From positions 26,977 through 90,976 of the forward strand of contig CAZUMH010000001.1 in the NCBI GenBank assembly GCA_964621645.1: a DNA stretch of 64,000 nt, written 5' to 3'. Source of the DNA: an uncultured bacterium. GTDB lineage: Bacteria; Zhuqueibacterota; QNDG01; JAGLOF01. Positions 6,101-53,141 of this stretch are shown here, in pieces. Each line of letters opens with the position of its first letter. The stretch's first letter is position 1. A model generated the notes under the pieces. The model searched no databases. It was not told where the DNA came from and saw only the letters and a list, made by a program, of their open reading frames with translations. The translations under genes were made by a program, and so were the position numbers.

Positions 6101-8040
6101 TCACGTCCGCGATTCAGGACGCCTCATCACCCCCGGAAGCATTCGCGGGCCATATCAGCACCTTCACCACGGCGGTTGAGGCACAGACGCCTGTAATCGC
6201 GTATGTCAATCCTTCGCAAGGTGCGGAGGGGACAGCGGTCGTTATTTCCGGTGAGGGATTCGATCCGGATCCGGCAAACAACGTCGTTTCATTCAACGGC
6301 ATAACAGCGGCGGTTACTGACGCAACCTTAACCAGTCTGGCCGCTTCCGTCCCCATTTCCGCCGTCACCGGACCGCTCGAAGTCACGGTTAACGGCAGTA
6401 CCAGCAACGCCTATTCATTTACTGTCCTTCAGCCTTCAGGATTTCCTGACGAATATGATACAATCAATGTGCCTGGTGAGCTGGACAATCAGGACGTTGA
6501 ATTTTCACCGGACGGCGCTTATGCGTATGTCACCAATACAGGGGCAAACTCTATCAGTGTTATTGATGTGGCGAATGGTGATTTTATCGGACAACCTGTA
6601 TCTGTCGGCGGAAGCCCGGTCAAAATCACGGTAAGCCCGGATGGTAAAAAAGCGTATGTCACCAACTTTGCCTCGCATACCATCTCCGTGTTGAATACGG
6701 CGGTTCCGGCTGATGTTACGGTTGAAACGACAATTCCCGTGGGGATCAATCCGGCCGGTATAGCAATTTCACCGGACGGGAAACGCGTCTATGTCGGCAA
6801 CTATACTTCCCGCAACATTTCCATCATCGATGTGGATGAGAACAGCGGCGGGTATAACCATGTCATCGCCAACGTGGACACCGATTCCGAAAACCGGGAT
6901 GTGGAGTTCGGCCCTGACGGACTTCGGGTGTTAATCACCGGTATGGGTATCATTGTACTCGATACCAATCCGTCTAGTGATACATACAATCAGGTCATTG
7001 CCAATGTGGAGCCGGACACCGAAACACGGGATGTTGATTTCAGTCCCGACGGCATGCTCGCGGTTGTCTCAACCATGGCCGGGAATATACTGCTCATCGA
7101 CATGATGGAAAATACCGCATCACCTTATCAGGTCATTGCCAATATCCATCCCGAGCAGGAGGCCCATGATGTTGAATTCGGACCCGATGGATCACACATT
7201 TATACTACAAATTATTATTATAATCAGCTATCCATCTATGAGCTGACGTATGGCGGTGATACTGGAGGTTCCGGAAGCAGCTATCCCTATATCGCTTCCA
7301 TGCAGTTACTCCAGACAATCGATGTTGGCGGCGCGCCTATGGGGCTTGCGATCGACAGCGGTGGCGAACGTATCATCGTGGCCAATTCAGGATCAGGTGG
7401 TGTTACGATAATCGATCTGTTCGGTACGCCTGAAAGCAATATCAAACATACCCTCAGCACAATTCACCAAATACAGGTGGATGGTTTCATCAACAGCGGC
7501 CAGGCCAACGCCCTCACCAACAAGCTGAACAACGCCTTGGATAAGCTCGCAAAGGGCAAAACGAAAACCGCTATCAATATTCTGGAATCCTTCTGCAATC
7601 AGGTTCAGGCTCTTATTAATGATGGGATAATTCCCGCGGGCATCGGTGAAGACCTAATGAACCGGGTCAAGGATATCATCGTCAGCCTGGTCAGCGGCAG
7701 TTCAGCCAGTCCTGAAGAAGAAAACCTCATGCTTACAGAACAGATGCCTAAGACCTTTTCGCTCGAACAGAACTATCCCAATCCGTTTAATTCGTCTACA
7801 ACTATCGCCTATACCATCCCGGCGGTGTCGGCGAAAACCGTAGATGTTCGACTGATACTCTATAATATTCTGGGGGAACCGGTGCGCACTCTGGTCAGCG
7901 AACAAAAATATCCCGGATTTTACGAAGTGGTCTGGGATGGACGGGACGATGCGAACAGAGATGTCCCCTCAGGCATCTATATTTATCGGGTCAAGGCGGG
8001 CGATTTCACGCAACTCCGGAAGATGATTTTGATTAAATGA
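139..8040 (+). CDS. Giant secreted multidomain T9SS cargo protein (LamG-like, parallel beta-helix repeats, metzincin Zn-protease, CarboxypepD_reg-like, Ig-like/Big, IPT/TIG, YVTN beta-propeller, FIMAH, T9SS C-terminal sorting domain)
   Basis: 2633-aa ORF with RBS GAGGTG 5 nt upstream and an N-terminal signal peptide (FFLTITGFICIILTGQAFAQ). LamG signature LYVNG...IDEVRLWN. About 500 aa of NxISGN/NxIGxD beta-helix repeats. HEIGHVLGLVH (nt 4663-4695), an HExxHxxGxxH metzincin motif. SbsA-Ig-like and IPT segments. Repeated YVTN / SPDGKxxYV propeller units. FIMAH-like helix (ALTNKLNNALDKLAKGKTKTAINIL). C-terminal QNYPNPFN...YNILGEPV...SGIYIYRVKAG...KMILIK is a T9SS CTD. Confidence 0.85.
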   Translation: MMLSHSKSKRARAMFFLTITGFICIILTGQAFAQNQAAMFDGNLTVNNGSRIRITDSQPIDPGSANPAVYQISGDHITVEAWVYPFSADGPLYSIVRRPAVYPDPDPPYTYSLHMNAGVPYFGISDGSAGSAMETDYSETIPAFAWTHLAGTYDGSYLRLYVNGIERSSVFIETDIGSGSTGLYIGRLVGRAFAGLIDEVRLWNITRDQVDIQNDMSVELTGTETGLAGYWKFNGIEEINGFQAARDYTSNNNHLIVQYNTPFVTFNPIDHHDVDAAITAHTPSIDFGTIEQAYEWKTRTIDITNGSENPLVGIMWGNISANTEGTAVMYVPPYGTESFDISLRTKDAGSLSGDIAIDYNGGSETVSATIESVPVLRFDVNQIGLWTSRTGIAGYDPFTASAGLEWPIGSGKTALYSMGIRIGALVGNEIRIAAVNYNGSEFSPGPIINGTPADPEDPIYRMYKTGGPGDGDWDVWPLDQGAPASFWGSPKLLGDQTLFSVYNDMDPGKHTVFNTAPLGVEVQQTVYGYGSGSTALENTVFFVYKIINKGSHTWENAYISVWADPDLGYYMDDFAGVDVSRGLGYLYNADNFDDPNDSNPGYGTPPPALGIDMLRGAFLSTPIQAFTYHTGIGGSAPLDDPQNAQEAYNYMQGLKSDGSPFMDGGTPTTFPLSGDPVTGTGWVDAGEADRRIMLSTGPITLKPGESRQVIAALIMAAGSDNIDSITELRNASDAVQLLFDPIVVTSAADAGNGTFRAALEEANARPGIDYIHFNISGTGVHTLQPATPYPVVMDAVIIDGKTQAGYSGTPLIEIDGSGVTGTDQRGLVIIAGNSTVRGLAINRFGQAGIVLQDNGGNTIQGNFIGTDAAGGTALGNGGFALAVGCSSNLIGGSAPGEGNLISGNGYDGIFMSDPGGDDNQVLGNIIGLDLDGQAALGNGQCGVQISNNCVNNIIGPDNIISGNVSAGVCIAGAAAANNTVLNNKIGTDISGSLAIGNLQGVNIQAPNNIVSANLISGNTSDGITLHNSDAHNNTIKGNIIGLNAAGDATLANTSVGINITGHHNTVGGSTTADRNIISGNIQNGICIELGATENNILGNYIGTDITGTKAVPNDQSGIQIRLAANNHIGGKNAGEGNLISGNDKHGIYIYGTGVTLSHSNTVQGNYIGTDKTGLKSLPNTGSGIHYATYTWGNLIGGLEPGSGNLIAFNNGAGVSFGGGGLASPPYRNAIFSNSIYANVGLGIDLNFGLDGTPYGETPNDPGDADFGTNELQNFPVLSSVEFTTDAAIINGSLNSAANTDYTIQCFACKTAHESGYGDGETLLGTETVTTDGSGNVSFTFTFPISASAGQVISMTATDPSGNTSEFSEVSGGAASQLLDLSAMTFTINSQGDPTIGDGSDITAVEAAFATWNAVSECTVNFSTVTSPDYSIADANDGINLVTFTDNEFLFAPGVLAVAAKTIRMDAAGLPAEIIDADIVYNPYWTTHYKYNFKTDTDPGYFDIQSVTTHEIGHVLGLVHSGVETATMFFMIGSDINARTLETDDMAWVRSKYPETGTYSATYGSLTGRIEDGYSSGTGIAGALVYAISEATGDSVHTYSDANGDFTIPGLLPGNYTVFVEPLDGDVCGFALRPAHISAYIYAITKITDFPEEYYSGTSEGVSEVEDIAAIVTVSAGGPAGPITILTNRDVTPPVVLSVSPGSGSTDIAVTSQILAGFSEPVDAATISASTCFLSVGPNPVNCQMDYTMMDNDKKVLLTPGILLQHETDYTLHITSGVTDLHGNGLSSEYTSTFTTIPADIEAPSVTGVVPADGAGSIFPTANITVIFSEPVDASTLEAGFTLSTANISDVPASFTLNQSGSTVTFDPVNSLMEGTTYTVTLTADITDLSGNPLSSAPYSSSFTTVAQAAPLLEYIGPNPGQDNVSVTTTVLTEFSEPINPATVNPSSFILRQGSTQIAGNFEFLNNNAGVVFRPFEDLDFGLTYTIELTSAIQDASSPPEAFAGHISTFTTAVEAQTPVIAYVNPSQGAEGTAVVISGEGFDPDPANNVVSFNGITAAVTDATLTSLAASVPISAVTGPLEVTVNGSTSNAYSFTVLQPSGFPDEYDTINVPGELDNQDVEFSPDGAYAYVTNTGANSISVIDVANGDFIGQPVSVGGSPVKITVSPDGKKAYVTNFASHTISVLNTAVPADVTVETTIPVGINPAGIAISPDGKRVYVGNYTSRNISIIDVDENSGGYNHVIANVDTDSENRDVEFGPDGLRVLITGMGIIVLDTNPSSDTYNQVIANVEPDTETRDVDFSPDGMLAVVSTMAGNILLIDMMENTASPYQVIANIHPEQEAHDVEFGPDGSHIYTTNYYYNQLSIYELTYGGDTGGSGSSYPYIASMQLLQTIDVGGAPMGLAIDSGGERIIVANSGSGGVTIIDLFGTPESNIKHTLSTIHQIQVDGFINSGQANALTNKLNNALDKLAKGKTKTAINILESFCNQVQALINDGIIPAGIGEDLMNRVKDIIVSLVSGSSASPEEENLMLTEQMPKTFSLEQNYPNPFNSSTTIAYTIPAVSAKTVDVRLILYNILGEPVRTLVSEQKYPGFYEVVWDGRDDANRDVPSGIYIYRVKAGDFTQLRKMILIK

Positions 8041-10878: not shown

Positions 10879-11027
10879 AGTAATACTCCATGTTTTAGGA
10901 TTAAGCCCCTTTACCGGTTCAGTATTGTAGTAATATTATCAAGAAACCGCAAGAGAATTATAGCGGAAATTGGATAGAAGAAAGGGCATCGATTTACTGC
11001 TCGTTCAGGGAGGCGCCGCTTTAATGA

Positions 11028-11063
11028 GTGACCCTGTCAGGGTCTGGAACCCTGACAGGGTCA
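11028..11063. promoter_or_regulatory. 36-bp near-perfect palindrome (TGACCCTGTCAGGGTC-TGGAA-CCCTGACAGGGTCA) in the divergent region upstream of the PadR operon
   Basis: Read directly from the sequence. Two 15-bp inverted copies, each internally dyad-symmetric. It ends 50 bp upstream of a sigma70-like promoter. Confidence 0.4.
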
Positions 11064-11113
11064 TAAACGAAAAGTCACTATTCCATAGAACGGAGAAAAA
11101 AATAAAAAAACAC

Positions 11114-11142
11114 TTGCAATACCTAATTGAATTATGTATAAT
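11114..11142 (+). promoter_or_regulatory. Sigma70-like promoter (TTGCAA - 17 bp - TATAAT) immediately upstream of PadR
   Basis: TTGCAA at 11114-11119 and TATAAT at 11137-11142, with a 17-bp spacer and an A-rich tract upstream. The -10 element overlaps the first in-frame ATG at 11141, which suggests a short-leader or leaderless transcript using the ATG at 11153. Confidence 0.35.
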
Positions 11143-11485
11143 GCCTCTAGGTATGGGAAACAACTTTACAAGAGAACTGATCGCCGCTTCGACGATTCCG
11201 CTTATTCTGGCCGTGCTTCGGGAGGAAGAAAGCTACGGATACGCGATCATCAAGCGCGTCCGCGGGCTCTCGCAGGAGACCCTGGAATGGACCGAGGGGA
11301 TGCTCTATCCCGTCCTGCATCGGCTGGAAAAACAGGAACTGATCAAATCCTACTGGTCAAAAGAACAGGGCAGACGCAGGAGATACTATCGCCTCCTTCC
11401 GGCCGGAGTGGCGGAATTGGAGCGGCTTAAGAAGCAATGGACCTCTATCAATTCGACCCTGAACAGGTCATGGGGGCAGGTATGA
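11141..11485 (+). CDS. PadR-family transcriptional regulator
   Basis: Winged-helix PadR signature YGYAIIKRVRGLSQETLEWTEGMLYPVLHRLEKQELIKSYW...RRYYRLLPAG. The track ORF (10970-11485) has an unlikely 57-aa N-terminal extension, so an internal ATG (11141 or 11153) is preferred. The stop overlaps the next gene in ATGA fashion. Confidence 0.8.
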   Translation: MPLGMGNNFTRELIAASTIPLILAVLREEESYGYAIIKRVRGLSQETLEWTEGMLYPVLHRLEKQELIKSYWSKEQGRRRRYYRLLPAGVAELERLKKQWTSINSTLNRSWGQV

Positions 11486-12834
11486 AATTCGACATAGAGC
11501 AGAAAATTAAAAATTGGAAAGACTATCTGAATTCGCGCGGCAGTTTTTTACCTGACGATCTGGAGGAACTGGAAACACATCTTCGCGATGAAATCGACGC
11601 GCTGCAGAAAAACGGTCTGGACGCGGAGGAAGCGTATTTCATCGGCATCAAGCGGCTGGGCAAATCCGATGCCCTTTCCCGGGAGTTTTACAAAATCAAC
11701 GCCCAGTCCCTGTGGAAGCACCTGTTCACTCCTTCCGAACCCGGCGGAAGGAAAGCTGCCCGCCGCGATATCTGGATAATTATCGGTCTCGCTCTGCTTG
11801 CCGGATTTCTCGGGAAAATCCCCGATCTGTTCGGGTACCGGATCAGCAACAAATCCGACAGTCTTATCTACCTGCGGAACCTAAGTCTGTTTTTCATCCC
11901 TGTGATCGGCGGCTGGTTCCTTATTCAGAAAAAAAATTGGGGGACCGGTTTTTATCTGTTCGCGATAATCTGCCTCGGTGGCTTCCTTGCTGTCAATTTC
12001 TTTCCCTTTACAGGCGCGGGACATACTGAAATCTTGGCGGGTATCCATCTGATCATTCTGCTCTGGATGGTTCTTGAACGGCTCTACGGTCCAGGTCAGG
12101 AGATCGCCGCCGGCCGCATGAATTACATCACCTTCAGCGGTGAATTCTTCATCTACTCGGTGCTCTGCTACCTCGGTATCGGTGTGTTTACCATGTTTAC
12201 TATTGCCTTGTTCGAAACGCTGAACATCAGGCCCGATAAATTCATTCTTGAATATATCGTCGTGTTCGGCGGTCTGGGTGTGCCGGTTGTGGCGGTCTAT
12301 CTGGTGGAGAAGAAGAAAGCGCTCATCGAGAATATGGCTCCCGTGCTGGCAAACATTTTCACTCCCCTGTTTCTGCTGCTCATCAGCGGATTCGTCGCCG
12401 CGCTTTTGGGGCGACGATTGAATCTGACCGTTCAGAGGGAAACTCTGATCATTTTTGACTTCCTCCTGGTTCTGGTTTTAGGGCTTGTGCTCTATTCCCT
12501 TTCGGCGCGAAATCATTCAGAAAAGCCCCTCTTTTCCGACTATCTGGTGTTTATCCTGATTCTGGTCACACTTCTCGCGGACGTTTTCGCCATGAGTGCC
12601 ATCATTTCCCGGCTCAGTCAGTTCGGGCTGAGCCCGAATAAAGTGGCCGCATTGGGTGAAAATATCCTTCTCTTCATCAACCTGTCCGGACTGGCGGTGA
12701 CCTTCGGCGGGATCATCTTCAAAGGCAGGGATTTCCGCCGGCTGGAAGTCTGGCAGTCCTGCTGTTATGTGGGATTCATGGTCTGGATGGCCGTCGTGGT
12801 GTTCATCTTTCCCATTGCTTTTCATTTTGCCTGA
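11482..12834 (+). CDS. Polytopic membrane protein with N-terminal 'permease prefix domain' (PadR-associated sensor/permease-like protein)
   Basis: N-terminal cytoplasmic helix LEELETHLRDEIDALQKNGLDAEEAYFIGIKRLG matches the PadR-associated permease-prefix motif. At least 10 predicted TM helices follow. GGGGCAGGT RBS and ATGA overlap with the PadR stop. Confidence 0.7.
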   Translation: MKFDIEQKIKNWKDYLNSRGSFLPDDLEELETHLRDEIDALQKNGLDAEEAYFIGIKRLGKSDALSREFYKINAQSLWKHLFTPSEPGGRKAARRDIWIIIGLALLAGFLGKIPDLFGYRISNKSDSLIYLRNLSLFFIPVIGGWFLIQKKNWGTGFYLFAIICLGGFLAVNFFPFTGAGHTEILAGIHLIILLWMVLERLYGPGQEIAAGRMNYITFSGEFFIYSVLCYLGIGVFTMFTIALFETLNIRPDKFILEYIVVFGGLGVPVVAVYLVEKKKALIENMAPVLANIFTPLFLLLISGFVAALLGRRLNLTVQRETLIIFDFLLVLVLGLVLYSLSARNHSEKPLFSDYLVFILILVTLLADVFAMSAIISRLSQFGLSPNKVAALGENILLFINLSGLAVTFGGIIFKGRDFRRLEVWQSCCYVGFMVWMAVVVFIFPIAFHFA

Positions 12835-18891: not shown

Positions 18892-19599
18892 ATGAACATC
18901 CCGACAAAACTGGTGTGCCTGACGATATTCTCTCTGCTGCTTCTCACCGCCTGCAGCACCAACCGGCTGCATGAGTACACCCTGGAAAATACCACAGCTG
19001 CTGCCGAGATGTCCCCGGCGCCGCGGGCTCAGGTGTTTTCTCACACCTTCTTCGCTCCGAGCGGAAACATCGTTTCCGCGCTGATCGAGGCCGGCACCAA
19101 CATCGCCAAGGAGGTCGAGGCCCAGAAAGCGCAGCGGAAACTGGACAGCGCCATGGTACAGGTGGATATTCCGGAGATTATACGGTACCGGACCCTGCAG
19201 AAATGCAGCCGCCATCTCGAGATGCGGCCGGTGGAAAAACGCGAGCAGGCGGATTTTGTCTACGTGATGCGCATTAAAAAATACGGCATAGAAGCGGAAT
19301 CATGGACAGCCCAGGTCCAGTTTTTAATCGATGTAAACGTGCGTATGATCGACAATGAGAAGGAACTGAAGATCTGGGAACGAAACATCCATGAACGCAT
19401 GGATATCACCGGCTCTATTTTCGGTTTCAGCGAACGGCTGGGCGACGTGATCACGGCAGCGGCATTATCGAAACTGACGGAAGAGCAAATGGTAGAAGGA
19501 TTTGCAAACCTGGCGGAATACGCCGCCGGAAGAGTCGCCGAACGGATTTACGATGATTTTCTTGAATCACGGGAGAGACTGGAGGAACAAACCCAATAG
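18892..19599 (+). CDS. Hypothetical lipoprotein
   Basis: Signal peptide with lipobox LLLLTAC. Charged C-terminal half with no identifiable domain. Confidence 0.5.
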   Translation: MNIPTKLVCLTIFSLLLLTACSTNRLHEYTLENTTAAAEMSPAPRAQVFSHTFFAPSGNIVSALIEAGTNIAKEVEAQKAQRKLDSAMVQVDIPEIIRYRTLQKCSRHLEMRPVEKREQADFVYVMRIKKYGIEAESWTAQVQFLIDVNVRMIDNEKELKIWERNIHERMDITGSIFGFSERLGDVITAAALSKLTEEQMVEGFANLAEYAAGRVAERIYDDFLESRERLEEQTQ

Positions 19600-20498
19600 C
19601 GGGATATGATACAAAATCAAACTGACACCAGCCTGAATAAATAATACTTGCGAATGAAAAAATCGGGATGCTTTGAACAAATGCCCTGAAAAGATGTCTC
19701 ATACCATGGGAAAGCTCATCTGCTGGTTGAGTGGGGACGGGTTCTCCGGCATTAGGAAAATCGCCGCCCGGACAGGGGAAACAAGGGATCGCCCGTCCCG
19801 ATTATTCAATACTATTCTTAAAAAAAATATCGGAAATGACCGAGTGACCATGTCAGGCGATTTTTCTGAAGCCGAGGGTTGTCTTTGACTGTACCATAAA
19901 GAATCATTTACAGAAACGTTGTTGCCAAAAAGAAATATACCTCATTTCGGGCCTGATTTCGGCCCGAAGGCGCGGCTGCCGCTTTATATACCGTAAAACA
20001 CCCGCATCCGAAAAGGGGCCGGCGTAAAAATGAAAACAGTTGGCGGCCCGTCTCATTTTCGGGCCGCCGTATAGAGAGAAAAGCAGCGTCCGGGGGCCGG
20101 GATGGGGCATGGAGACTCGAAGAATGGGAACGCACCTGTGAAAAGCTATTCAGCCGCGCCAGGGGTTTTTGGTCCTTTTTGCCCCGTCAAAAAAGATATC
20201 TCATCCTAAAGGGAGACTTCTGATACAGTCCGATTAACTAAATTGAAATGTAAGAATCCCTTAAATTGTTAACCATGTACTTGGACTGTCCCAATTCAAT
20301 ACAGAGTATTATTGAGAGATTCCGGATTGGTTTCACCGATAATCATAACAACGTACACTACAAAATGAAAAATTAATCGCTGTGCCCGGTATCTGAAAAT
20401 TGCCGGGCGTTTTTTCAACATTTCTTGTAAAATATGGGTATCATATAGTGAAAGCGCTGCGGGGAAAGCGGTCAGGCTGGACAAACCGGAAAGAACAG

Positions 20499-21107
20499 AT
20501 GGTGACAAAGAGTGGTGACATTGAAAAAAGTATTCTTACCTCAGCACAGAAGGGCGACGGGGCAGCCTTTGAAAAGATCGTGCTCCATTATCAGCATCGG
20601 GTGCTAGCGCTGGCCTGCAACATCGCGGGAAATCCCGTGGACGCGTGGGATATTGCCCAGGAAGTATTCATCAGACTCTACCGCTACCTGCCGGGCTTTC
20701 GCTTTCAAAACAGGTTCTATACCTGGCTCTACCGCATTGTGGTCAACACCAGCTACGACTGGCTCAAACAAAAACAGCGCTTTCGTACCGTCACACTCGA
20801 CAGCATCAAAGAAACCGGACAGCCGGAGACGGTGCACCGGACATTGGATTGTTTTGACCTGCAGGAGAAAATAATGGAAGGACTGGACCGGATGAATCAC
20901 CTCCATAAAACCGCTTTTATACTGAAAGAAGTGGAAGGTCTTTCCTGCAAAGAGATCGCCAACGTCATGGAGTGTCCGCCCGGTACGGTACGCAGTCACC
21001 TCTTTCACGCCAGAAAAGGCCTGCAGGCTCACCTGCGGATCAACTATCCTGAACTGGCCCAGATGTCTAAAAAGAAGGATAAAAACGATGCGATGCTCAT
21101 GGACTAA
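20499..21107 (+). CDS. RNA polymerase ECF-type sigma-70 factor (sigma-24 family)
   Basis: Region 2 (HYQHRVLALACNIAGNPVDAWDIAQEVFIRLYR) and region 4 HTH (LDRMNHLHKTAFILKEVEGLSCKEIANVMECPPGTVRSHLFHARKGL). The track ORF starts at an upstream TTG; the ATG at 20499 gives a ~200-aa product. Confidence 0.85.
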   Translation: MVTKSGDIEKSILTSAQKGDGAAFEKIVLHYQHRVLALACNIAGNPVDAWDIAQEVFIRLYRYLPGFRFQNRFYTWLYRIVVNTSYDWLKQKQRFRTVTLDSIKETGQPETVHRTLDCFDLQEKIMEGLDRMNHLHKTAFILKEVEGLSCKEIANVMECPPGTVRSHLFHARKGLQAHLRINYPELAQMSKKKDKNDAMLMD

Positions 21108-21585
21108 AAACAGGCTGGCCAACTATCGCGGTGGGGAACTGCACCGCTGGGAGAACCTCCTGGTCCAGCACCACCTGAAGCGTTGCGATTCCTGCCAGGC
21201 GGAACTGGAGAATCTGAACAGGATAACAGTGGCGGCAGCGGAGGCGCTGCGGCAACAGCGGGAGGAACTTCCCCGGACCGATCTCTGGCCGGTCATCCTT
21301 CCCAATCTACCAAAAGTAGCCGAACCCGTCGGAATGAATCCCACCCGGCCCCTCTGGCAGCACTGGCCCTCAGCAGCGGCGTTGGCGGCGGCCGCTGTCC
21401 TGATCATCTTATTGATCGGAAGGGACAGGCTGTCACTGACTGAGGACAGATCCCTGGCATCGCAGCAAATTGAACCGCCGGCGGTGGAAGAAGTGTTCAC
21501 ACCCAATACCACCGTCATGACGATCCAGACAGAAGATCCCAAGGTACGGATCGTCTGGCTGTTCCAGGACGACAGTAAATCGTAA
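21088..21585 (+). CDS. Anti-sigma factor, zf-HC2 type, single TM
   Basis: N-terminal HHLKRCDSCQAELENL (HxxxCxxC zinc motif of ChrR/RslA-type anti-sigmas). One TM helix (AAALAAAAVLIILLIG). Short periplasmic tail. Overlaps the sigma stop, which suggests translational coupling. Confidence 0.7.
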   Translation: MRCSWTKNRLANYRGGELHRWENLLVQHHLKRCDSCQAELENLNRITVAAAEALRQQREELPRTDLWPVILPNLPKVAEPVGMNPTRPLWQHWPSAAALAAAAVLIILLIGRDRLSLTEDRSLASQQIEPPAVEEVFTPNTTVMTIQTEDPKVRIVWLFQDDSKS

Positions 21586-21606
21586 ATTTCAGATAAGGAG
21601 AACATC

Positions 21607-22584
21607 ATGAAAAAGCACATCATTGTAATTACACTGCTGGCCCTGCTGCTGACTGCGGCGGCCGGCATGACCCAGGTCCCCAATCACGGCACGGTAAGCG
21701 GCACCGTTATCGATGAGGATTCAGGAAAGCCGATTGAGAATGTACTGGTAAAGTATCATTACACCGGCAGCGATAAAGCGGAGATGGGGACAATGACCGA
21801 CGCCAAGGGGGAATTCACTGCCAAGATGATCGAGCCAAACCAGATCGTGATCTTCCTTTTCAGTAAAAAGGAGTATCAGCAGGAGTATCGAGAACTGGTG
21901 GTGGAAAAATTCGAATCCAAGGAACTTTCCATCTCACTGAAAAAAATCACCCCTTCCTTAAATTATGCCCCTGAAGCCCGGACCTTTCAAATAAAGTACC
22001 GCGACGCTCAGGATATCCTGGAAATTATCAAGCCCTTTCTCAGTGATGCCACTGGCCATGATAAGGTCTCGATGTCTCCTTCCCTGCAGACAATAACGGT
22101 CTACGCCAATCAGGAGAAACTGGCCAAAATCGCCAAGACCATTGCCACCTACGATGTCCCCCCGAAGCAGATCTGGGTGGAAGTAATGCTGGTCAAGGCC
22201 AGCGGCAACGGCGGCGGCAAGGCGAAAATTCCGGCGGAATTGAATAATCTGGCGAAACAGCTGGAATCCGTCTTCAAATTCACCACTTTTGAAATCATCG
22301 GCAGAACGACCGCCACAGGGGTGGAGGGAGCGAACATCCAGACCTCCTCAAATATGGATAAAGTCAACCTGCTTCCCAGCTTTCAGATACGGGGCGGCCT
22401 CAATCTCAGCGGTGATGTCATCAGGCTGGATCATTTCCAGGTCCAAGTTGTCAGGCCCATCCGCAGCGAGATCGCCACTACGGTCAACATTCCCGACGGC
22501 GGCAAGATGATTCTGGGAGCCTCCAACGATAACGCTCTGGAAGGCTCGCTGATCACGGTGGTGTCCGCCAGAGTAATGAAATAA
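21607..22584 (+). CDS. Secreted CarboxypepD_reg-domain + Secretin_N-domain protein with short secretin-like C-terminal beta region (mini-secretin-like)
   Basis: AAGGAG RBS and signal peptide. GTVSGTVIDEDSGKPIENVLV...DAKGEF is a carboxypeptidase-regulatory-like beta-sandwich. ARTFQIKYRDAQDILEIIKPFL...ITVYANQEKLAKIAKTIATYDVPPKQIWVEVMLV matches the GspD/PilQ secretin N-domain pattern. C-terminal TTVNIPDGGKMILGAS...LITVVSARV resembles the end of a secretin domain. At 325 aa it is far shorter than canonical secretins. Confidence 0.6.
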   Translation: MKKHIIVITLLALLLTAAAGMTQVPNHGTVSGTVIDEDSGKPIENVLVKYHYTGSDKAEMGTMTDAKGEFTAKMIEPNQIVIFLFSKKEYQQEYRELVVEKFESKELSISLKKITPSLNYAPEARTFQIKYRDAQDILEIIKPFLSDATGHDKVSMSPSLQTITVYANQEKLAKIAKTIATYDVPPKQIWVEVMLVKASGNGGGKAKIPAELNNLAKQLESVFKFTTFEIIGRTTATGVEGANIQTSSNMDKVNLLPSFQIRGGLNLSGDVIRLDHFQVQVVRPIRSEIATTVNIPDGGKMILGASNDNALEGSLITVVSARVMK

Positions 22585-22627: not shown

Positions 22628-22660
22628 GGCCCCCTCTGGATGAGGGGGCCTATTCTTTTT
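22628..22660 (+). terminator. Rho-independent terminator (stem GGCCCCCTC / GAGGGGGCC, loop TGGAT, followed by TATTCTTTTT)
   Basis: Read directly from the sequence, 44 bp after the stop of the 21607-22584 gene. Confidence 0.6.
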
Positions 22661-22824
22661 GGATGGAAAGATAGTTGGATTCGAAGTGAATAATGTACCC
22701 GGTTTTTCAAACGAGTATTCGGGAGGCAGGGAATTTATCCGGACATCCGTAATGTATTGCAGAAGATATCCTTTATAAAAAATATCCTGCAGCAGCCAGC
22801 TGCAGGCAGGGAAAGGATAACCAC

Positions 22825-24720
22825 TTGAAGGTTCGCTCCCTCCCTTATCGGGCTGCCCTGATCCTGATGCTCCTCTCGGCACACTTCTGCCGGGCAGGGC
22901 ATGAAGTCAGCACCCTCCTCAAACTGGATTATTCGGCAGCAGCTGATATCCGCATCCGCAGCAGCAGCGACGGCAATGCCGGTATCGTCGCGTTCAGCGT
23001 TCTGGATGAGGCCCGGGTCGCCCTGCTCTGTATTACCACCGACTGCATTACTATCCACCGCATCCCAGATGGTCTGCTGCTGCAGACAATTCCCCTACTC
23101 AGCCACCCCAGGGATTTCATCTGGAACGGCAGCCGGTTTTTTGTCCGCTTCAGCGACAGGGTTCTGACAATGGACGCTGAAGGCGGTCAGCGGACCGAGA
23201 TACCCCTCAATCCCTCAATCAGGTTCATCTCCCGGCTGAAATGGCGGAATGGAACACTTTATGCCCTCACCGTGGATGGATACTCCTATCCGCTTTCCCG
23301 GAACGGACAGCCGCTGGAGACGGGCAGTCAAATCAGAGAGCGGATACGCGGGTGGGCATTGGATAATGGAATATCGGCATTTCCGGTCATTACCGCTGAA
23401 TTCAGCGGCGAAATCAGAGTCTACACCGGCCCGGACAGCACCTTTATCCCCGTCTCCTCCAGTACACCTCTTGGCTGCATGCGGATCATCGGCACAGCCG
23501 ACAGCTCCCTCTACCTGGAAATCCAGACTATCCTGCAGCAGGTCCCCTTGCGAGTCAGCCGTACGGTTGCCCGTCTCTCGATGAGTGGTGGACGGATCAT
23601 CGACACCTTCGAACCGCCCCGCAGTACTTTTTTCCCCATGACCGCTGATCTTATCATAAGGGAAAACACGCTCTATCACGCGCTCACAACACCGGAATCG
23701 ATCATTTTTTACCGGCTTCGCCAGGACTCCCGCCTCCGGAAGACAATTTTTCCTGCACCGCCGGAGGAGTACCATTATAATGATCATCTGCCGGAATGGG
23801 ACAGGATGAGCGTACCAAGTGAAGCTGTGCCGGGGCCGGCGGTACTCGATCCCATCAGCAGAAGTGCAATCATGGAGAATGCCGACAAGTATGTCCAGGT
23901 CGAATGGATATGCGGAGAGAAGAATACGAGCAACAATGAAGTGATCTCCCTTCCGGACGGTGCCCTTATTCAAACGCCTGCCTGGGTGACGGTCGGCCCC
24001 AAGAAGCGGACTCCCTACAAATGGGGAGGATTCACCCATGTCGATATATTCAGGGAACGAATCGAAGCGGAATGCTATGCAGGAGACGTCTACGGCGACA
24101 GGAATGATCCCCAGACCGTCAGTCCCGGAGACGCCTACTGCGTCGGTGTCGACTGCAGCGGATTCGTCTCCCGCGCCTGGAACCAGCCGGTGAAACACTG
24201 GACCGGATCACTCCCGGAAATCTCGGAACCTCTGGAGAGCTGGTCCGAGGTGCGGCCCGGAGACATAGCGGATAAAGTCGCGGGACATGTGATGCTGATC
24301 GTGGACAGGAGCAATTCCGGGGTTTTCAGTGTTGTGCACTCCAACGGGACTACCGAAAATGTGTGCTATCAGATAAAGACACTGTACGATCTCAGCGGAT
24401 ATGTACCCATGAAATACGCGGCGGTCATCGAAGACGGGTGGGAGCCCGAAACGGCGGAATGGACGGCCCTGTATCAGAATTTCCCTAATCCGATTCGCTC
24501 TGCCACCCAGATGCCATTCTACCTTACCTATGAATCGGACGTGACCATCAGCGTGTATAACCTTCTCGGACAGGAAGTCGCCGTTCCCTGCAGCGGACAT
24601 TTCAGCGAAGGCGCACACAGCATCGGCTGGGATCCCGGTGAACTGCCGTCGGGGATCTATTTCTACCGTTTGAAGACCGACTGGGACGTATTCATGAAAA
24701 AATGCATCGTCGTCGAATGA
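22825..24720 (+). CDS. T9SS-sorted secreted protein with NlpC/P60 (CHAP-like) cysteine peptidase domain
   Basis: TTG start with GGAAAGGA RBS and signal peptide. Cys/His pair in YCVGVDCSGFVSRAW ... GDIADKVAGHVMLIV (nt ~24130-24310) fits NlpC/P60 cell-wall hydrolases. C-terminal YQNFPNPIRSAT...VYNLLGQEV...SGIYFYRLK is a T9SS CTD. Confidence 0.75.
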   Translation: MKVRSLPYRAALILMLLSAHFCRAGHEVSTLLKLDYSAAADIRIRSSSDGNAGIVAFSVLDEARVALLCITTDCITIHRIPDGLLLQTIPLLSHPRDFIWNGSRFFVRFSDRVLTMDAEGGQRTEIPLNPSIRFISRLKWRNGTLYALTVDGYSYPLSRNGQPLETGSQIRERIRGWALDNGISAFPVITAEFSGEIRVYTGPDSTFIPVSSSTPLGCMRIIGTADSSLYLEIQTILQQVPLRVSRTVARLSMSGGRIIDTFEPPRSTFFPMTADLIIRENTLYHALTTPESIIFYRLRQDSRLRKTIFPAPPEEYHYNDHLPEWDRMSVPSEAVPGPAVLDPISRSAIMENADKYVQVEWICGEKNTSNNEVISLPDGALIQTPAWVTVGPKKRTPYKWGGFTHVDIFRERIEAECYAGDVYGDRNDPQTVSPGDAYCVGVDCSGFVSRAWNQPVKHWTGSLPEISEPLESWSEVRPGDIADKVAGHVMLIVDRSNSGVFSVVHSNGTTENVCYQIKTLYDLSGYVPMKYAAVIEDGWEPETAEWTALYQNFPNPIRSATQMPFYLTYESDVTISVYNLLGQEVAVPCSGHFSEGAHSIGWDPGELPSGIYFYRLKTDWDVFMKKCIVVE

Positions 24721-27513: not shown

Positions 27514-28815
27514 CTATTTTTCTTTTTCCTGTTTTTCTTTTAACTGCTTCTCTTTTTCCTGACTGTCATGCTGCCATTTTTTATACTTTTCGTCAAGCAG
27601 CTGCAGTTTTTTCTTTACTGCATCCCGCTCTTCATCGGTCTCAGCATCTTTGTATTTCTGCTCCAGCGCCGCGTGATCTTTCTTGTACATCTTTTCGTAT
27701 TCGGAATCCGTAACTGTAACGGTCTTCATGTTATTTTTTTCATCCTGTTTCAGCATCTGCAGTTTCTTTTCGACCTCCGCCATCTTCTTCTTCAGCATCG
27801 CCTTCTCATCTTCGGTCTCAGCCTTTTTATATTTGGCTTTGAGTTCCTTGAGCATGGTTTCGAGCTTTTTAATCTCTTCTTTCTTCTTGGTGTCTTCATC
27901 ATAGGCGGTGCTCTGATCCGTGACGGTAAGGACCGGGCCGGTCTGTGCCATTGCCTTGGTGTCGATTAAGGCTTTGGGCCGCGCAAACGCCAGGATGAGA
28001 ATCGAGAATACAGGCAAGATCAGCAGCACTCGCAGGCGTGACCATCTGCCGGATTGTTTTTTCTGCATCATGGCTATTCTCCTTCTTATTTGAGATTGAT
28101 GAAAATTATTCGCCAGGCTGAAAATCCTGACGCCCACGAACCGCTCAAAAATCAGCGTCTGATAGCCTGCCCTGTCGCAGCCCTGCGCAATGACCGCTTC
28201 ATCGGCAAGAAATTCGTGGGTCTCCTTGATCGCCCTTTTGTATGGCCAGACAAAAGGATTGAACCACTGTACTATTGAGTACAGTTCCGTCAGCAGAATA
28301 TCTATGGTATGATACTGCCGTATATGAACAATTTCATGGGAAATGATTTGTTCCAGGTCATTTTGATCCAGCTTGGATGTATCGAGAAAAATGAGATTGA
28401 AAAAGGTAAAATCCGATATCCCGTTATCCGTAAAGACGAATTTATGTCCGTTCTTTTCCGTTATTCCATATTTTTTAACCAGCTTCGCAAGGTGCCCAAG
28501 GCGCAGCATGAAAATGACCAGCAGCAGGACTGCGCCCCCTATATAAACATACAGCAGGTAATCCGTGATATCGGTCCTGTATCCGGTGCCTTCATAGACG
28601 GTCTCGACGCTGTAGCCGGTAACATCCATGCTCCGGGAAAGAAATGGTGATTGCAGATGAATTGCGGGAATCAGCAGTGAAACAGGCATGGCGAGGAGTA
28701 AAAACAGCCTGTTTATTCTGAAGAATGTCTCTTTCCGCAGCAGAAGCCGGTATATCAGATAAAACAGAGCCATACTGATTCCGGATTTCAGCAGATAGAT
28801 TAGTGCGGGATTCAT
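27514..28815 (-). CDS. BlaR1/MecR1-like M56 family signal-transducing metalloprotease with C-terminal K/E-rich coiled coil instead of a sensor domain
   Basis: Four N-terminal TM helices. HEXXH Zn site HEIVHIRQYH and downstream FLADEAV (M56 motifs). A further TM follows, then ~180 aa of lysine/glutamate-rich heptad repeats (KYKKAETEDEKAMLKKK ... KYKDAETDEERDAVKKK). Confidence 0.8.
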   Translation of the reverse strand: MNPALIYLLKSGISMALFYLIYRLLLRKETFFRINRLFLLLAMPVSLLIPAIHLQSPFLSRSMDVTGYSVETVYEGTGYRTDITDYLLYVYIGGAVLLLVIFMLRLGHLAKLVKKYGITEKNGHKFVFTDNGISDFTFFNLIFLDTSKLDQNDLEQIISHEIVHIRQYHTIDILLTELYSIVQWFNPFVWPYKRAIKETHEFLADEAVIAQGCDRAGYQTLIFERFVGVRIFSLANNFHQSQIRRRIAMMQKKQSGRWSRLRVLLILPVFSILILAFARPKALIDTKAMAQTGPVLTVTDQSTAYDEDTKKKEEIKKLETMLKELKAKYKKAETEDEKAMLKKKMAEVEKKLQMLKQDEKNNMKTVTVTDSEYEKMYKKDHAALEQKYKDAETDEERDAVKKKLQLLDEKYKKWQHDSQEKEKQLKEKQEKEK

Positions 28816-28816
28816 C

Positions 28817-29194
28817 TCAGTCCCCCTTCTTTTTCTCAATTTCCTGCTGAATGAGCCTGGCAATCTCCTCCAGTTCATTCAGATTTACCTGTTTTTCCTT
28901 GGCAAAGAAAGAGACCAGCTCCTGGTAGGAATTCTCAAAGTAGTTTTTGACAAAATTATGCAAATATTGCTTTTTATACTCATCCTCATCAATCAGGGGA
29001 TAGTACTGGTGAGTGTTCCCGAAGGAGCGGTGGTCCACAAATCCCTTTTTCTGCAAAATCCGCACAATGGTGGAAACGGTGTTATACGCGGGTTTCGGTT
29101 CCTGGAGTTCTTCCAGGATATCCCTGACGAATCCTTTTCCAATGTTCCAGAGTACCCGCATGATCTGTTCTTCCGCTTTTGTCAGAGTTTTCAT
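28817..29194 (-). CDS. BlaI/MecI/CopY-family transcriptional repressor
   Basis: Penicillinase-repressor winged helix: LTKAEEQIMRVLWNIGKGFVRDILEEL...YNTVSTIVRILQKKGFV. It sits directly upstream of, and adjoins, the M56 gene. Confidence 0.85.
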   Translation of the reverse strand: MKTLTKAEEQIMRVLWNIGKGFVRDILEELQEPKPAYNTVSTIVRILQKKGFVDHRSFGNTHQYYPLIDEDEYKKQYLHNFVKNYFENSYQELVSFFAKEKQVNLNELEEIARLIQQEIEKKKGD

Positions 29195-35377: not shown

Positions 35378-36526
35378 TTACCTAAGCAATATCAGCTTTC
35401 TTATCTTTGTATATTCTCCCGCCTTCATTTTGTAAAAATATACGCCGCTGGCCAATCCGTTGGGCTGCCAGACTGTTTCATGCAGACCTGCCGGCATGGT
35501 GCCATCAACCAGGGTTTCTATTTCCTGTCCGACAATATTATATACTTTGATCACGACGCGGCTCGCCTCGGCCAGCGTGAATTTTATGTTTGTTGACGGA
35601 TTAAAGGGATTGGGATAGTTTTGGTACAGATTAAAACCCCCGGGGATGACCTTGTCATCCTTCCCGATCAGTGTTGTACCGCTCCTTGTATGCAGGGTGA
35701 AAAAATCCCAGATGCTATCAGTTGCGGTGATTCCCCAGTTTGAAGGTCGCGGCCACTCATGCTCTCCGGTCGGATTTGTATAGAGGATGATGTCCGTCAA
35801 TCCGGTTGATGATGGCCATTGCCTTCCAATAATGCCATTTTCATTATATATAGTATCCGGATCCGAGCTGCAGTCATTGATGCGGCGCCATGCAGCCATG
35901 GTTGAATCCACCGGAGGGATGGCATTCGTGCTGTCACCCGCTCCATAATAGGGGAAGATATCATCACTCAAGCCGTGAAAATGAATGATCGGCACCGGGA
36001 ACTCGGGATTGCAGTATTCATACAGCATCTGTCCCGAACTCACTCCCATCGCCGCGATTTTATCTGATAGTTCCGCGGCAACACGGTAGGCCATGGCAGC
36101 TCCGTTGGAAAAGCCCATAACATAAATTCTGGTAGTATCGACATTATTGTTCATTATCATTGTGTCGATGAGTGCCGAGATAAATCCGATATCATCAGTT
36201 CCTTGAGTGATATCTTCATAGATGCCGCCGGCGTTCCACCAGGTCAGCAGGTTGTAACGGAGACCGTTGGGACAGGCGACGTAAAACTTTTCTTTTATGG
36301 CTTTCTGCACAATGGCCGTGGTTGCCATAAATGTCAATCCATCCGAACCTGAACCGTGCAATCCGATAATCAGGGGATACCCATCGAGATTGGGAGGCAA
36401 GGAAGATTCATACATCGCGTAAGTACGTGTAGTGTCTCCGTATACGAAATCCTGATACTGCCCGTACAGCAGTTGAGAGATAAGACAGATCCCGATGACA
36501 ATGAATAGTACCGTTCTCTTCGACAT
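35378..36526 (-). CDS. T9SS-sorted alpha/beta-hydrolase esterase (PHB-depolymerase/feruloyl-esterase-like, CE1-type)
   Basis: AAGGAGGG RBS and signal peptide. LIIGLHGSGSDG oxyanion region, nucleophile elbow GFSNGAAMA (GxSxG), His in FHGLSDD. C-terminal YQNYPNPFNPSTNIKF...VYNIVGQEI...SGVYFYKMKAG...KLILLR is a T9SS CTD. Confidence 0.8.
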   Translation of the reverse strand: MSKRTVLFIVIGICLISQLLYGQYQDFVYGDTTRTYAMYESSLPPNLDGYPLIIGLHGSGSDGLTFMATTAIVQKAIKEKFYVACPNGLRYNLLTWWNAGGIYEDITQGTDDIGFISALIDTMIMNNNVDTTRIYVMGFSNGAAMAYRVAAELSDKIAAMGVSSGQMLYEYCNPEFPVPIIHFHGLSDDIFPYYGAGDSTNAIPPVDSTMAAWRRINDCSSDPDTIYNENGIIGRQWPSSTGLTDIILYTNPTGEHEWPRPSNWGITATDSIWDFFTLHTRSGTTLIGKDDKVIPGGFNLYQNYPNPFNPSTNIKFTLAEASRVVIKVYNIVGQEIETLVDGTMPAGLHETVWQPNGLASGVYFYKMKAGEYTKIRKLILLR

Positions 36527-53133: not shown

Positions 53134-53141
53134 GATTAGAA

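What the first reader, a model, noticed from the sequence alone, without database searches (positions are those of the whole stretch)
20499..22584. ECF sigma / zf-HC2 anti-sigma module coupled to a 325-aa CarboxypepD_reg + secretin-N mini-secretin
Cell-surface signalling in FCB bacteria normally couples an ECF sigma and FecR-type anti-sigma to a TonB-dependent transducer, whose N-terminus carries an STN domain plus a CarboxypepD_reg domain. Here the third gene keeps a CarboxypepD_reg domain and a secretin-N/STN-like domain (ARTFQIKYRDAQDILEIIKPFL...IWVEVMLV) but has no TonB barrel. It ends instead in a short secretin-like beta segment (TTVNIPDGGKMILGAS...ITVVSARV). The anti-sigma is the small zinc-binding HxxxCxxC type rather than FecR. 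The arrangement looks like a stripped-down or novel trans-envelope signalling or export module. The three genes are tightly packed (gaps of -20 and 21 bp), carry a strong RBS and end in a clear terminator. The T9SS-sorted NlpC/P60 peptidase gene follows immediately after the terminator.
Basis: partly seen in the sequence, partly recalled or inferred. Interest (0 to 1): 0.6.

Follow-up and report, generated by a model that had tools for sequence, protein, structure and literature searches.

The report
Sigma/anti-sigma operon with periplasmic mini-secretin partner
This three-gene operon (a stress-type sigma factor, its membrane anti-sigma factor, and an exported protein built like a cut-down secretin) belongs to a widespread, apparently undescribed envelope-signalling module, in which the secretin-like protein is most likely the anti-sigma factor's periplasmic partner, not a secretion pore.

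Summary
Window 20499-22584 encodes an ECF sigma factor, a single-pass zinc-type (C-x25-H-x3-C-x2-C) anti-sigma factor, and a 325-aa exported protein. The exported protein has CarboxypepD_reg and Secretin_N domains (both above Pfam cut-offs) plus a 138-aa C-terminal domain with no Pfam model. The gene spacing, RBS and terminator are as described.

New findings:
- The domain is about half the normal size. It lacks the amphipathic helical loop, which the literature describes as one of the outer-membrane-inserted parts. Its composition looks soluble.
- This Secretin_N plus mini-secretin module defines a large family: at least 500 clusters at 50% identity, mostly proteins of about 240 aa.
- Fifteen distinct members (18-50% identity; candidate division KSB1, Myxococcota and others) could be checked. 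All sit directly after a small anti-sigma gene. All 11 with enough upstream sequence also have an ECF sigma gene.
- Most of the anti-sigma factors share an extreme C-terminal periplasmic hairpin motif (T-x-D-P-x-I-x-I-V-W).

Not supported: the STN/TonB-transducer analogy, an export role, and the NlpC/P60 call for the neighbouring gene. CarboxypepD_reg is an accessory domain found in only part of the family.

Verdict: a new variant of sigma/anti-sigma/periplasmic-partner signalling. The signal is unknown.

The parts
20416..20442 (+). Candidate autoregulated ECF-type promoter: CAACA (-35), 16-nt spacer, GGTATC (-10), 57 nt upstream of the sigma ATG.
   Evidence: Similar CAAC[AG]...[AG]GTAT elements lie upstream of the sigma genes in L007, L019, L014/L016 and L012, with a one-mismatch version in L001. 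The only other exact site in the window is at 891, inside an ORF, and is at chance level. The generic sigma-70 scan also flagged it as TCAACA-18-TATCAT. This part is inferred, not shown.
20499..21107 (+). ECF (group 4) sigma factor, 202 aa. Alternative GTG start at 20448 gives the 219-aa NCBI call.
   Evidence: Sigma70_r2, Sigma70_r4_2 and Sigma70_ECF hits. TIGR02937 is above its cut-off. Orthologues are 63% (L001), 48% (L007) and 21-32% identical in distant modules, and share a [YH]PE[LY] motif after region 4.
21088..21585 (+). Single-pass zinc-type (ZAS) anti-sigma factor, 165 aa. Cytoplasmic C3/H29/C33/C36 motif at 21094-21195, TM helix at 21364-21420, periplasmic tail of about 54 aa.
   Evidence: zf-HC2 21.5 bits. 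NF052375 anti-sigma 1.8e-10. JGI names it 'anti-sigma factor RsiW'. Alignment A6. Coordinates.
21511..21564 (+). Conserved extreme C-terminal periplasmic beta-hairpin motif of the anti-sigma factor (TVMTIQTEDPKVRIVWLF). Proposed docking element for the third protein.
   Evidence: It is the only conserved periplasmic segment. Consensus: h-x-h-x-h-x-[TS]-x-[DN]-P-x-[IV]-x-[IV]-[IVY]-W. Present in the window and in L004, L005, L007, L010, L012, L014, L016, L018, L019, L020, L023 and L024. Degenerate in L021 and L022.
21607..21675 (+). Sec-type signal peptide of the third protein, with no lipobox Cys.
Evidence: Read from the sequence MKKHIIVITLLALLLTAAAGMTQ.
21691..21939 (+). CarboxypepD_reg (transthyretin-like beta-sandwich) accessory domain, residues 29-111.
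21973..22167 (+). Secretin_N (N3-type, beta-alpha-beta-beta-alpha) domain, residues 123-187.
   Evidence: PF03958 31.9 bits, GA 28.2. Family profile against PDB: GspD N domains at 1.9e-19. hhalign against true secretins: Prob 97.5, E 7e-12.
22168..22584 (+). Mini secretin-like C-terminal domain, residues 188-325: eight short strands plus one amphipathic helix, ending in the LITVVSARV strand. No Pfam model.
22628..22650 (+). Intrinsic terminator that ends the three-gene operon.
   Evidence: 9-bp stem with 8 G-C pairs, followed by a T-run.

Best explanation
This is a three-component envelope-signalling module.

Shown:
- An ECF sigma factor is co-transcribed with a single-pass zinc-binding anti-sigma factor and an exported protein.
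- The exported protein's conserved core is a secretin N3-type domain fused to a half-size secretin-like beta domain.
- This gene order is kept across very distant bacteria.
- The only conserved periplasmic part of the anti-sigma factors is a C-terminal beta-hairpin, seen in 13 of 15 members.

Inferred:
- The anti-sigma factor holds the sigma factor at the inner membrane.
- Its C-terminal hairpin docks onto the secretin-fold protein in the periplasm, probably by beta-strand addition.
- That contact controls access of proteases to the anti-sigma factor, as a protector or sensor in the manner of RseB/MucB or the FecA signalling domain.
- A signal disturbs the contact. It could be envelope damage, the assembly or oligomeric state of the secretin-like protein, or, in this candidate division KSB1-type variant, a ligand bound by the extra CarboxypepD_reg domain.
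- The anti-sigma factor is then degraded and the sigma factor is released. The operon is induced from its own CAACA-N16-GGTATC promoter, together with an unknown regulon.

The secretin-like protein is most likely periplasmic and possibly ring-forming, not an outer-membrane pore.
For: - Domains and gene spacing.
- Synteny: in 15 of 15 distinct family members with readable upstream DNA, the gene follows a small anti-sigma-like gene. In 11 of 11 with enough sequence, an ECF sigma gene precedes that. Members are 18-50% identical and include candidate division KSB1 and Myxococcota. Downstream genes differ, so the unit is just these three genes.
- The conserved C-terminal hairpin of the anti-sigma factors co-occurs with the family.
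- Family size: 1997 representatives at E<=1e-3 and 502 at E<=1e-10. 146 of the best 150 are <=401 aa with the module at the C-terminus.
- Secretin-core fold by two methods.
- Signs of solubility: the AHL is absent, strands are short, strand faces alternate polar and hydrophobic, GRAVY is -0.08, and 24% of residues are charged.
- No T2SS, T4P or T3SS genes in the 64-kb window.
Against: - No direct evidence of binding between the hairpin and the third protein. No complex model could be run.
- Genes co-transcribed with an autoregulated sigma factor can simply be regulon outputs.
- The secretin-domain fold is otherwise known only in oligomeric outer-membrane channels, so a pore or ring cannot be excluded.
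- In two distant relatives, T2SS-type genes lie nearby: T2SSF directly downstream in L022, and T2SSE two genes downstream in L014.
- The signal is unknown.
- The promoter assignment rests on a short motif.
Confidence: 0.55

Rival explanations
1. The secretin-like protein is an output of the sigma factor, not a regulator. It would be a periplasmic or outer-membrane-associated structural protein, possibly a ring, made when the sigma factor is active. It is co-transcribed only because the operon is autoregulated.
For: It is the last gene of an autoregulated operon. N3-type domains and secretin sheets are ring-building elements in all solved relatives. Accessory N-terminal domains vary, as in surface or structural proteins.
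Against: The three-gene order is strictly conserved across phyla while flanks vary. A conserved anti-sigma periplasmic hairpin also co-occurs with the family. Both are typical of regulatory partners such as RseB, not of regulon cargo, which usually varies.
Confidence: 0.2
2. It is a genuine minimal secretin: an oligomeric outer-membrane channel. The channel would either export something or let an external signal reach the anti-sigma tail, giving TonB-independent cell-surface signalling.
For: The best structural matches are only secretin pores: pIV, GspD, RcpA, PilQ and InvG. A few family members carry the CpaC/RcpA-type N-terminal domain PF13629. T2SSF and T2SSE genes lie near two distant members.
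Against: - No PF00263 hit at E<=1.
- About 137 aa stand where secretins have >=220 aa.
- The amphipathic helical loop is deleted. It is the most conserved secretin element and, with the beta-lip, the only membrane-inserted part (PMC6532946).
- Strands are 9-13 residues long, with polar outer faces.
- No lipobox, pilotin, S domain or secretion-machine genes in the window.
Confidence: 0.12
3. One reading: a stripped-down derivative of a Bacteroidota-type TonB-dependent transducer (CarboxypepD_reg plus STN) that has lost its barrel.
Against: No STN (PF07660), Plug or TonB_dep_Rec hit. The middle domain is Secretin_N and matches secretin N1-N3 domains. Most family members lack CarboxypepD_reg altogether yet keep the sigma/anti-sigma linkage. 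The anti-sigma factor is not FecR-type.
Confidence: 0.03

Closest known systems
Secretins (GspD/PulD, PilQ, InvG, f1 pIV, RcpA/CpaC; Pfam Secretin_N PF03958 plus Secretin PF00263)
   Different: The C-domain is about 137 aa against >=220 aa, and there is no PF00263 hit. The amphipathic helical loop (VP.LG.IP.LG.LF) is deleted. Strands are short and an amphipathic helix is inserted after the first strand. There is no N0 or S domain and no pilotin, and no secretion or pilus machine genes lie nearby. The gene sits in a sigma/anti-sigma operon. Oligomerisation and membrane insertion are untested.
RpoE-RseA-RseB (AlgU-MucA-MucB) envelope-stress modules
   Same: The operon order is sigma, single-pass anti-sigma, exported partner. 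The partner is expected to bind the anti-sigma periplasmic domain and gate its proteolysis.
   Different: RseB/MucB has a different fold (lipoprotein-carrier-like, from general knowledge), and no such family was hit here. RseA is not a zinc-type anti-sigma factor. The tail motif and the partner family here are different and undescribed.
FecI-FecR-FecA cell-surface signalling (TonB-dependent transducers)
   Same: An envelope-side protein with a small alpha/beta signalling domain contacts the C-terminal periplasmic part of an anti-sigma factor. Bacteroidota transducers also start with a CarboxypepD_reg-like domain.
   Different: No STN domain, TonB box, plug or 22-strand barrel. The anti-sigma factor is a small ZAS type, not FecR. 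The core family lacks CarboxypepD_reg.
SigW-RsiW type ZAS anti-sigma systems controlled by regulated intramembrane proteolysis
   Same: ECF sigma factor plus a zinc-motif anti-sigma factor with one TM helix and a short extracytoplasmic tail. JGI labels the anti-sigma factor 'RsiW'.
   Different: Those systems have no dedicated secretin-fold partner gene. The conserved T-x-D-P-x-I-x-I-V-W tail is specific to this module.

Membership tests
ECF (group 4) sigma-70 family | Only regions sigma2 and sigma4; matches the ECF superfamily model | tested here: met
   PF04542 1.4e-15, PF08281 1.7e-11 and PF07638 2e-5. TIGR02937 81.1 bits against a cut-off of 42.9. No equivalog-level model is reached: RpoE TIGR02939 scores 136 bits against 236.
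ZAS (zinc-binding) anti-sigma factors | N-terminal anti-sigma domain with H-x3-C-x2-C plus an upstream Cys/His ligand | tested here: met
   C3-x25-H29-x3-C33-x2-C36 is read from the sequence and conserved in the alignment. Pfam zf-HC2 scores 21.5 bits, 0.7 bit below the gathering score. Zinc binding itself is not testable here.
ZAS (zinc-binding) anti-sigma factors | Binds and inhibits the cognate sigma factor | not testable with these tools
   Inferred from the 20-nt overlap with the sigma gene and the conserved pairing in all relatives.
Secretin (PF00263) outer-membrane channels | Match to the Secretin domain model | tested here: not met
   No PF00263 hit at E<=1 for the window protein. One of 10 short relatives gives a partial hit, E 0.004. 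hhalign of the C-terminal block gives E 0.0015, probability 17%.
Secretin (PF00263) outer-membrane channels | N3-type Secretin_N domain immediately before the beta domain | tested here: met
   PF03958 31.9 bits, GA 28.2. hhalign Prob 97.5.
Secretin (PF00263) outer-membrane channels | Double-sheet secretin-domain fold | tested here: met
Secretin (PF00263) outer-membrane channels | Amphipathic helical loop and beta-lip, the membrane-inserted and most conserved elements | tested here: not met
   Only 7-8 residues lie between 'ILGAS' and the last strand, against about 38 residues including 'VPVLGNIPLIGQLF' in HofQ and other secretins. The role of the AHL and lip comes from PMC6532946. No strand is longer than 13 residues.
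Secretin (PF00263) outer-membrane channels | 12-15-mer, detergent-resistant ring in the outer membrane | not testable with these tools
   No multimer prediction or experiment was available.
TonB-dependent transducers (cell-surface signalling) | STN signalling domain, plug and TonB-dependent barrel | tested here: not met
   No PF07660, PF07715 or PF00593 hit at E<=1. The protein is 325 aa.
CarboxypepD_reg domain proteins | Match to PF13620/PF13715 above the gathering score | tested here: met
RseB/MucB anti-sigma-binding proteins | Sequence or fold membership in the RseB/MucB family | tested here: not met
   No such Pfam or NCBIfam hit. Structural matches are to secretins only. The functional analogy remains possible.
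New family: Secretin_N plus mini-secretin domain encoded after ECF sigma and anti-sigma | Full-length match to the 212-position module profile ending at the protein C-terminus, directly downstream of an anti-sigma gene with the T-x-D-P-x-I-x-I-V-W tail | tested here: met

The most novel reading that the evidence does not exclude
The secretin-derived protein forms a ring at or under the outer membrane and works as a new kind of envelope sensor. It would hold the C-terminal hairpin of the anti-sigma factor and release it when the ring's assembly state or a bound ligand changes. That amounts to TonB-independent cell-surface signalling, or a secretin/outer-membrane assembly surveillance system, present across many diderm phyla (candidate division KSB1, Myxococcota and others).
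Probability: 0.2. Interest if true: 0.8.

Novelty: new variant of a known kind. Interest (0 to 1): 0.6.

Why it matters
ECF sigma/anti-sigma pairs are a major route of bacterial signal transduction, yet for most groups the sensing partner and the signal are unknown. This module has a well-defined and widely conserved third component: at least 500 sequence clusters, none with a Pfam or NCBIfam model for the C-terminal domain, and 'hypothetical protein' as the only name found. It also has a matching conserved motif on the anti-sigma tail. That makes the sensing step directly testable.

It also shows that the secretin fold, so far known only from large outer-membrane channels, has a half-size, apparently soluble derivative used in signalling. 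This bears on how secretins evolved and how they oligomerise.

Tried and rejected
- afdb50 fold search: library not available.
- The search for related loci with broad alignments A3 and A4: failed for lack of conserved stretches.
- Metagenome scan: only a duplicate locus and a truncated one.
- Word-indexed homologue search with the family profile: few hits, because of the candidate cap.
- Literature: searches on ECF/anti-sigma/secretin, Secretin_N/PF03958 and mini-, small- or truncated-secretin found no description of the module. The main text of the ECF re-classification paper does not mention secretin, and its supplements are not held.
- Regulon search: the promoter motif has no further credible site in the window, so no regulon could be defined.
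- Rfam: nothing in the window or in the 19550-20520 spacer.
- Profile-profile alignment of the C-domain to true secretins: only a weak collinear block. Homology of the C-domain therefore rests mainly on fold.
- Fusion proteins joining anti-sigma and mini-secretin: none among 42 longer members.
- NlpC/P60 for the downstream gene: no support.
- A link to T2SS/T4P genes: considered because of L014 and L022, but absent from the window and from most loci.
- A fused-chain AlphaFold test of tail-partner binding: considered but not run.
Full report
**1. What is in the sequence**

Three same-strand ORFs fill window 20499-22584.
- The sigma gene runs from ATG 20499 to stop 21107.
- The anti-sigma gene (21088-21585) overlaps it by 20 nt.
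- The third gene (21607-22584) follows after 21 nt. AAGGAG lies 6 nt before its ATG.
- A 9-bp, G+C-rich hairpin with a T-run at 22628-22650 ends the unit.

The minus-strand ORFs over this stretch are shadows and have no homologues.

Domain hits support the gene calls.
- The first protein is an ECF sigma factor: Sigma70_r2 1.4e-15, Sigma70_r4_2 1.7e-11, and TIGR02937 at 81 bits against a cut-off of 42.9.
- The second protein has a complete zinc-type anti-sigma motif (C3-x25-H29-x3-C33-x2-C36), one TM helix (residues 93-111) and a periplasmic tail of about 54 aa. Pfam zf-HC2 scores 21.5 bits, just under its gathering score.
- The third protein has a signal peptide without a lipobox. CarboxypepD_reg covers residues 29-111 (37.3 bits, GA 32.3) and Secretin_N covers residues 125-188 (31.9 bits, GA 28.2).
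- Its last ~138 residues match no Pfam or NCBIfam family. There is no Secretin (PF00263), STN, Plug or TonB-receptor hit at E<=1.

The domain is Secretin_N (N1-N3 type), not STN. The downstream T9SS-sorted protein has no detectable NlpC/P60 domain.

**2. The fold of the third protein**

A first model from four sequences had pLDDT 76. A second model of residues 118-325, built from 82 family sequences, had pLDDT 92.1 and pTM 0.83.

The second model shows a beta-alpha-beta-beta-alpha N3-type domain. This is followed by one long strand, an amphipathic helix and seven further strands of 5-13 residues that run to the C-terminus.

- PilQ: 166 residues aligned.

Foldseek agrees. The 31 best hits (E <= 2e-6, TMq 0.44-0.59) are all secretin cores. 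N-domain-only entries score E 0.03-0.1 with TMq about 0.28. The C-terminal domain therefore contributes decisively to the match.

At sequence level, only the N3 domain plus the first strand is clearly homologous (family profile against GspD 1.9e-19; hhalign Prob 97.5). A second, collinear but weak block aligns 'IRL...T.v.i.dG..vilG' with the conserved secretin block.

**3. Why it is probably not a pore**

In solved secretins, each protomer contributes a 4-stranded outer sheet stacked on a smaller inner sheet. Only the beta-lip and the amphipathic helical loop (AHL) are hydrophobic and inserted in the outer membrane. The AHL is present in all solved secretins and is their most conserved region (PMC6532946).

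The window protein differs on each point.
- Only 7-8 residues lie between 'ILGAS' and the last strand. True secretins have about 38 residues there, including 'VPVLGNIPLIGQLF'. The AHL is therefore deleted.
- No strand exceeds 13 residues.
- Across the family, strands beta4, beta7, beta8 and beta9 alternate hydrophobic and polar positions.
- The C-domain has GRAVY -0.08 and 24% charged residues.
- There is no lipobox, S domain or pilotin. No T2SS, T4P, Tad or T3SS gene lies in the 64-kb window.

These points favour a soluble periplasmic protein, possibly ring-forming. That conclusion is an inference. Oligomeric state and localisation could not be tested.

**4. A large family tied to sigma/anti-sigma pairs**

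A word-indexed search found only three relatives, at 50%, 34% and 26% identity.

A full HMMER scan with a profile of residues 118-325 found far more.
- 1997 representatives (50% clusters) at E<=1e-3.
- 502 at E<=1e-10.
- 39 at E<=1e-30.

Of the best 150, 146 are <=401 aa with the module running to their C-terminus, which typically ends '...ALI.VvTAKVv[DE]'. Most are ~230-260-aa proteins made of a signal peptide plus the module. The other four are long proteins (564-2269 aa), at least two with a full secretin domain, matched through repeated Secretin_N domains.

Among 42 longer members, N-terminal additions vary: CarboxypepD_reg in 30, the CpaC/RcpA-type PF13629 domain in 3, and PEGA in 3. The CarboxypepD_reg domain of the window protein is therefore an accessory found in only part of the family. 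The only names found in source databases are 'hypothetical protein'.

Genomic context was readable for 15 distinct members.
- The set comprises the window, P0002, P0003, L007, L010/11, P0155, P0154, P0153, P0021, P0110, P0055, P0130, P0090, P0105 and P0140.
- It spans 18-50% identity and includes candidate division KSB1 and Myxococcota MAGs.
- In all 15, the gene directly follows a small anti-sigma-like gene.
- In all 11 with enough upstream DNA, an ECF sigma gene precedes that.
- Flanking genes differ from locus to locus, so the conserved unit is exactly these three genes.
- The T9SS-sorted neighbour in the window is not part of it.

**5. The anti-sigma tail**

Alignment of the anti-sigma factors shows the conserved zinc motif, a TM helix and a variable periplasmic linker. 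At the extreme C-terminus lies a conserved hairpin-like motif, h-x-h-x-h-x-[TS]-x-[DN]-P-x-[IV]-x-[IV]-[IVY]-W.
- Window: TVMTIQTEDPKVRIVWLF, residues 142-159.
- L019: YEVRMCTDDPKIKIVWVF.
- L012: VEIRMATGNPSIQVIWVM.
- L023: LLVKLETPDPDVVIYWIV.

It is the only conserved periplasmic element and it co-occurs with the mini-secretin family. This is the main, indirect argument that the two proteins contact each other.

The sigma factors of the modules are divergent (21-37% identity between phyla). Nine of the ten compared (all but L019) share a [YH]PE[LYI] motif after region 4.

Upstream of the sigma gene lies CAACA-N16-GGTATC (20416-20442). Related elements precede the sigma genes of several relatives. 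This is plausibly the autoregulated ECF promoter. No further site was found in the window, so the regulon is unknown.

**6. Mechanism**

Shown:
- the gene order;
- the domain content;
- the fold;
- the conservation of the triad and of the tail motif.

Inferred:
- The anti-sigma factor sequesters the sigma factor at the inner membrane.
- Its C-terminal hairpin docks on the secretin-fold protein, probably by strand addition.
- That contact shields or exposes the anti-sigma factor to regulated proteolysis.
- A signal disturbs the contact. Candidates are envelope damage, the assembly state of the secretin-like protein, or, in the candidate division KSB1-type variant, a ligand of the CarboxypepD_reg domain.
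- The sigma factor is released and induces its own operon.

I put this at about 0.55. The rivals are:
- the third protein is merely a co-expressed output (about 0.2);
- it is a true minimal secretin channel, possibly for TonB-independent surface signalling (about 0.12);
- it is a degenerate TonB-dependent transducer (about 0.03, contradicted by the domain tests).

The T2SSF gene directly after the L022 member and the T2SSE gene near the L014 member keep a link to type IV filament machines open for some lineages.

**7. Comparison with known systems, and novelty**

The module works most like RpoE-RseA-RseB or FecI-FecR-FecA, that is, sigma, anti-sigma and an envelope partner. The partner belongs to neither family.

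Structurally it derives from secretins, but it fails membership tests for the channel family: no PF00263 match and no AHL, and its short strands leave little room for a beta-lip.

I found no description of this module in the searchable literature. ECF Hub group descriptions could not be consulted.

I rate it a new variant of a known kind. The family it reveals has at least 500 clusters, with no Pfam or NCBIfam model for its C-terminal domain. The window copy itself is one ordinary member, probably from a candidate division KSB1-related FCB bacterium, because the closest genomic relatives are KSB1 MAGs.

Noticed in passing
window 20384-20415 and 19600-20400: A G+C hairpin (GCCCGG...CCGGGC, 13-nt loop) followed by TTTTTT lies immediately upstream of the candidate promoter. 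It looks like a terminator insulating the operon. The ~800 bp before it (19600-20400) holds no convincing ORF and no Rfam match.
   Followed up: partly
window 22825-24720: The downstream 631-aa protein has a T9SS C-terminal sorting domain. It also has a DCSGF...GHVMLIV motif reminiscent of a cysteine peptidase, but no NlpC/P60 or other catalytic-domain hit in Pfam, NCBIfam or PDB sequences. A hairpin with flanking A/T runs (22786-22806) sits just before its TTG start.
   Followed up: partly
window 21050-21070; L001, L007, L010, L012, L014, L016, L020, L021 sigma genes: The sigma factors of this module share a short [YH]PE[LYI] motif just after region 4, despite only 21-37% identity between phyla. 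It might mark a coherent ECF group.
   Followed up: no
L022 1336-2595; L014 7073-8206: In two distant family members, type II secretion/type IV pilus genes are close by. A T2SSF (GspF/PilC-like) gene overlaps the stop codon of the mini-secretin gene in L022. A T2SSE ATPase gene lies two genes downstream in L014. Neither is seen in the window or in other loci.
   Followed up: partly
window 20448 vs 20499: Public annotations disagree on the sigma start: 219 aa from GTG 20448 in the NCBI record, 202 aa from ATG 20499 in JGI/Logan. The GTG lies right after the proposed -10 element, so the ATG start with its GGAAAG RBS seems more likely.
   Followed up: no
window 139-8040 and 57076-62472: Two giant secreted proteins. 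One is 2633 aa with Laminin_G_3, beta-helix, matrixin, Big_5, beta-propeller and FlgD_ig domains. The other is 1798 aa with eight GEVED repeats and a T9SS sorting tail. A third T9SS-sorted esterase lies at 35378-36526. The genome clearly uses type IX secretion.
   Followed up: no
window 49871-56912: A heavy-metal-type RND efflux operon: an OEP outer-membrane factor, a CusB-like HlyD_D23 adaptor with an HMBD domain, and an AcrB-family pump.
   Followed up: no
window 27514-28878 and 10970-12834: A BlaR1-type M56 sensor peptidase gene. Separately, a PadR-family regulator gene is followed by an overlapping 465-aa ORF without any family match. These are other small signalling units in the same window.
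   Followed up: no
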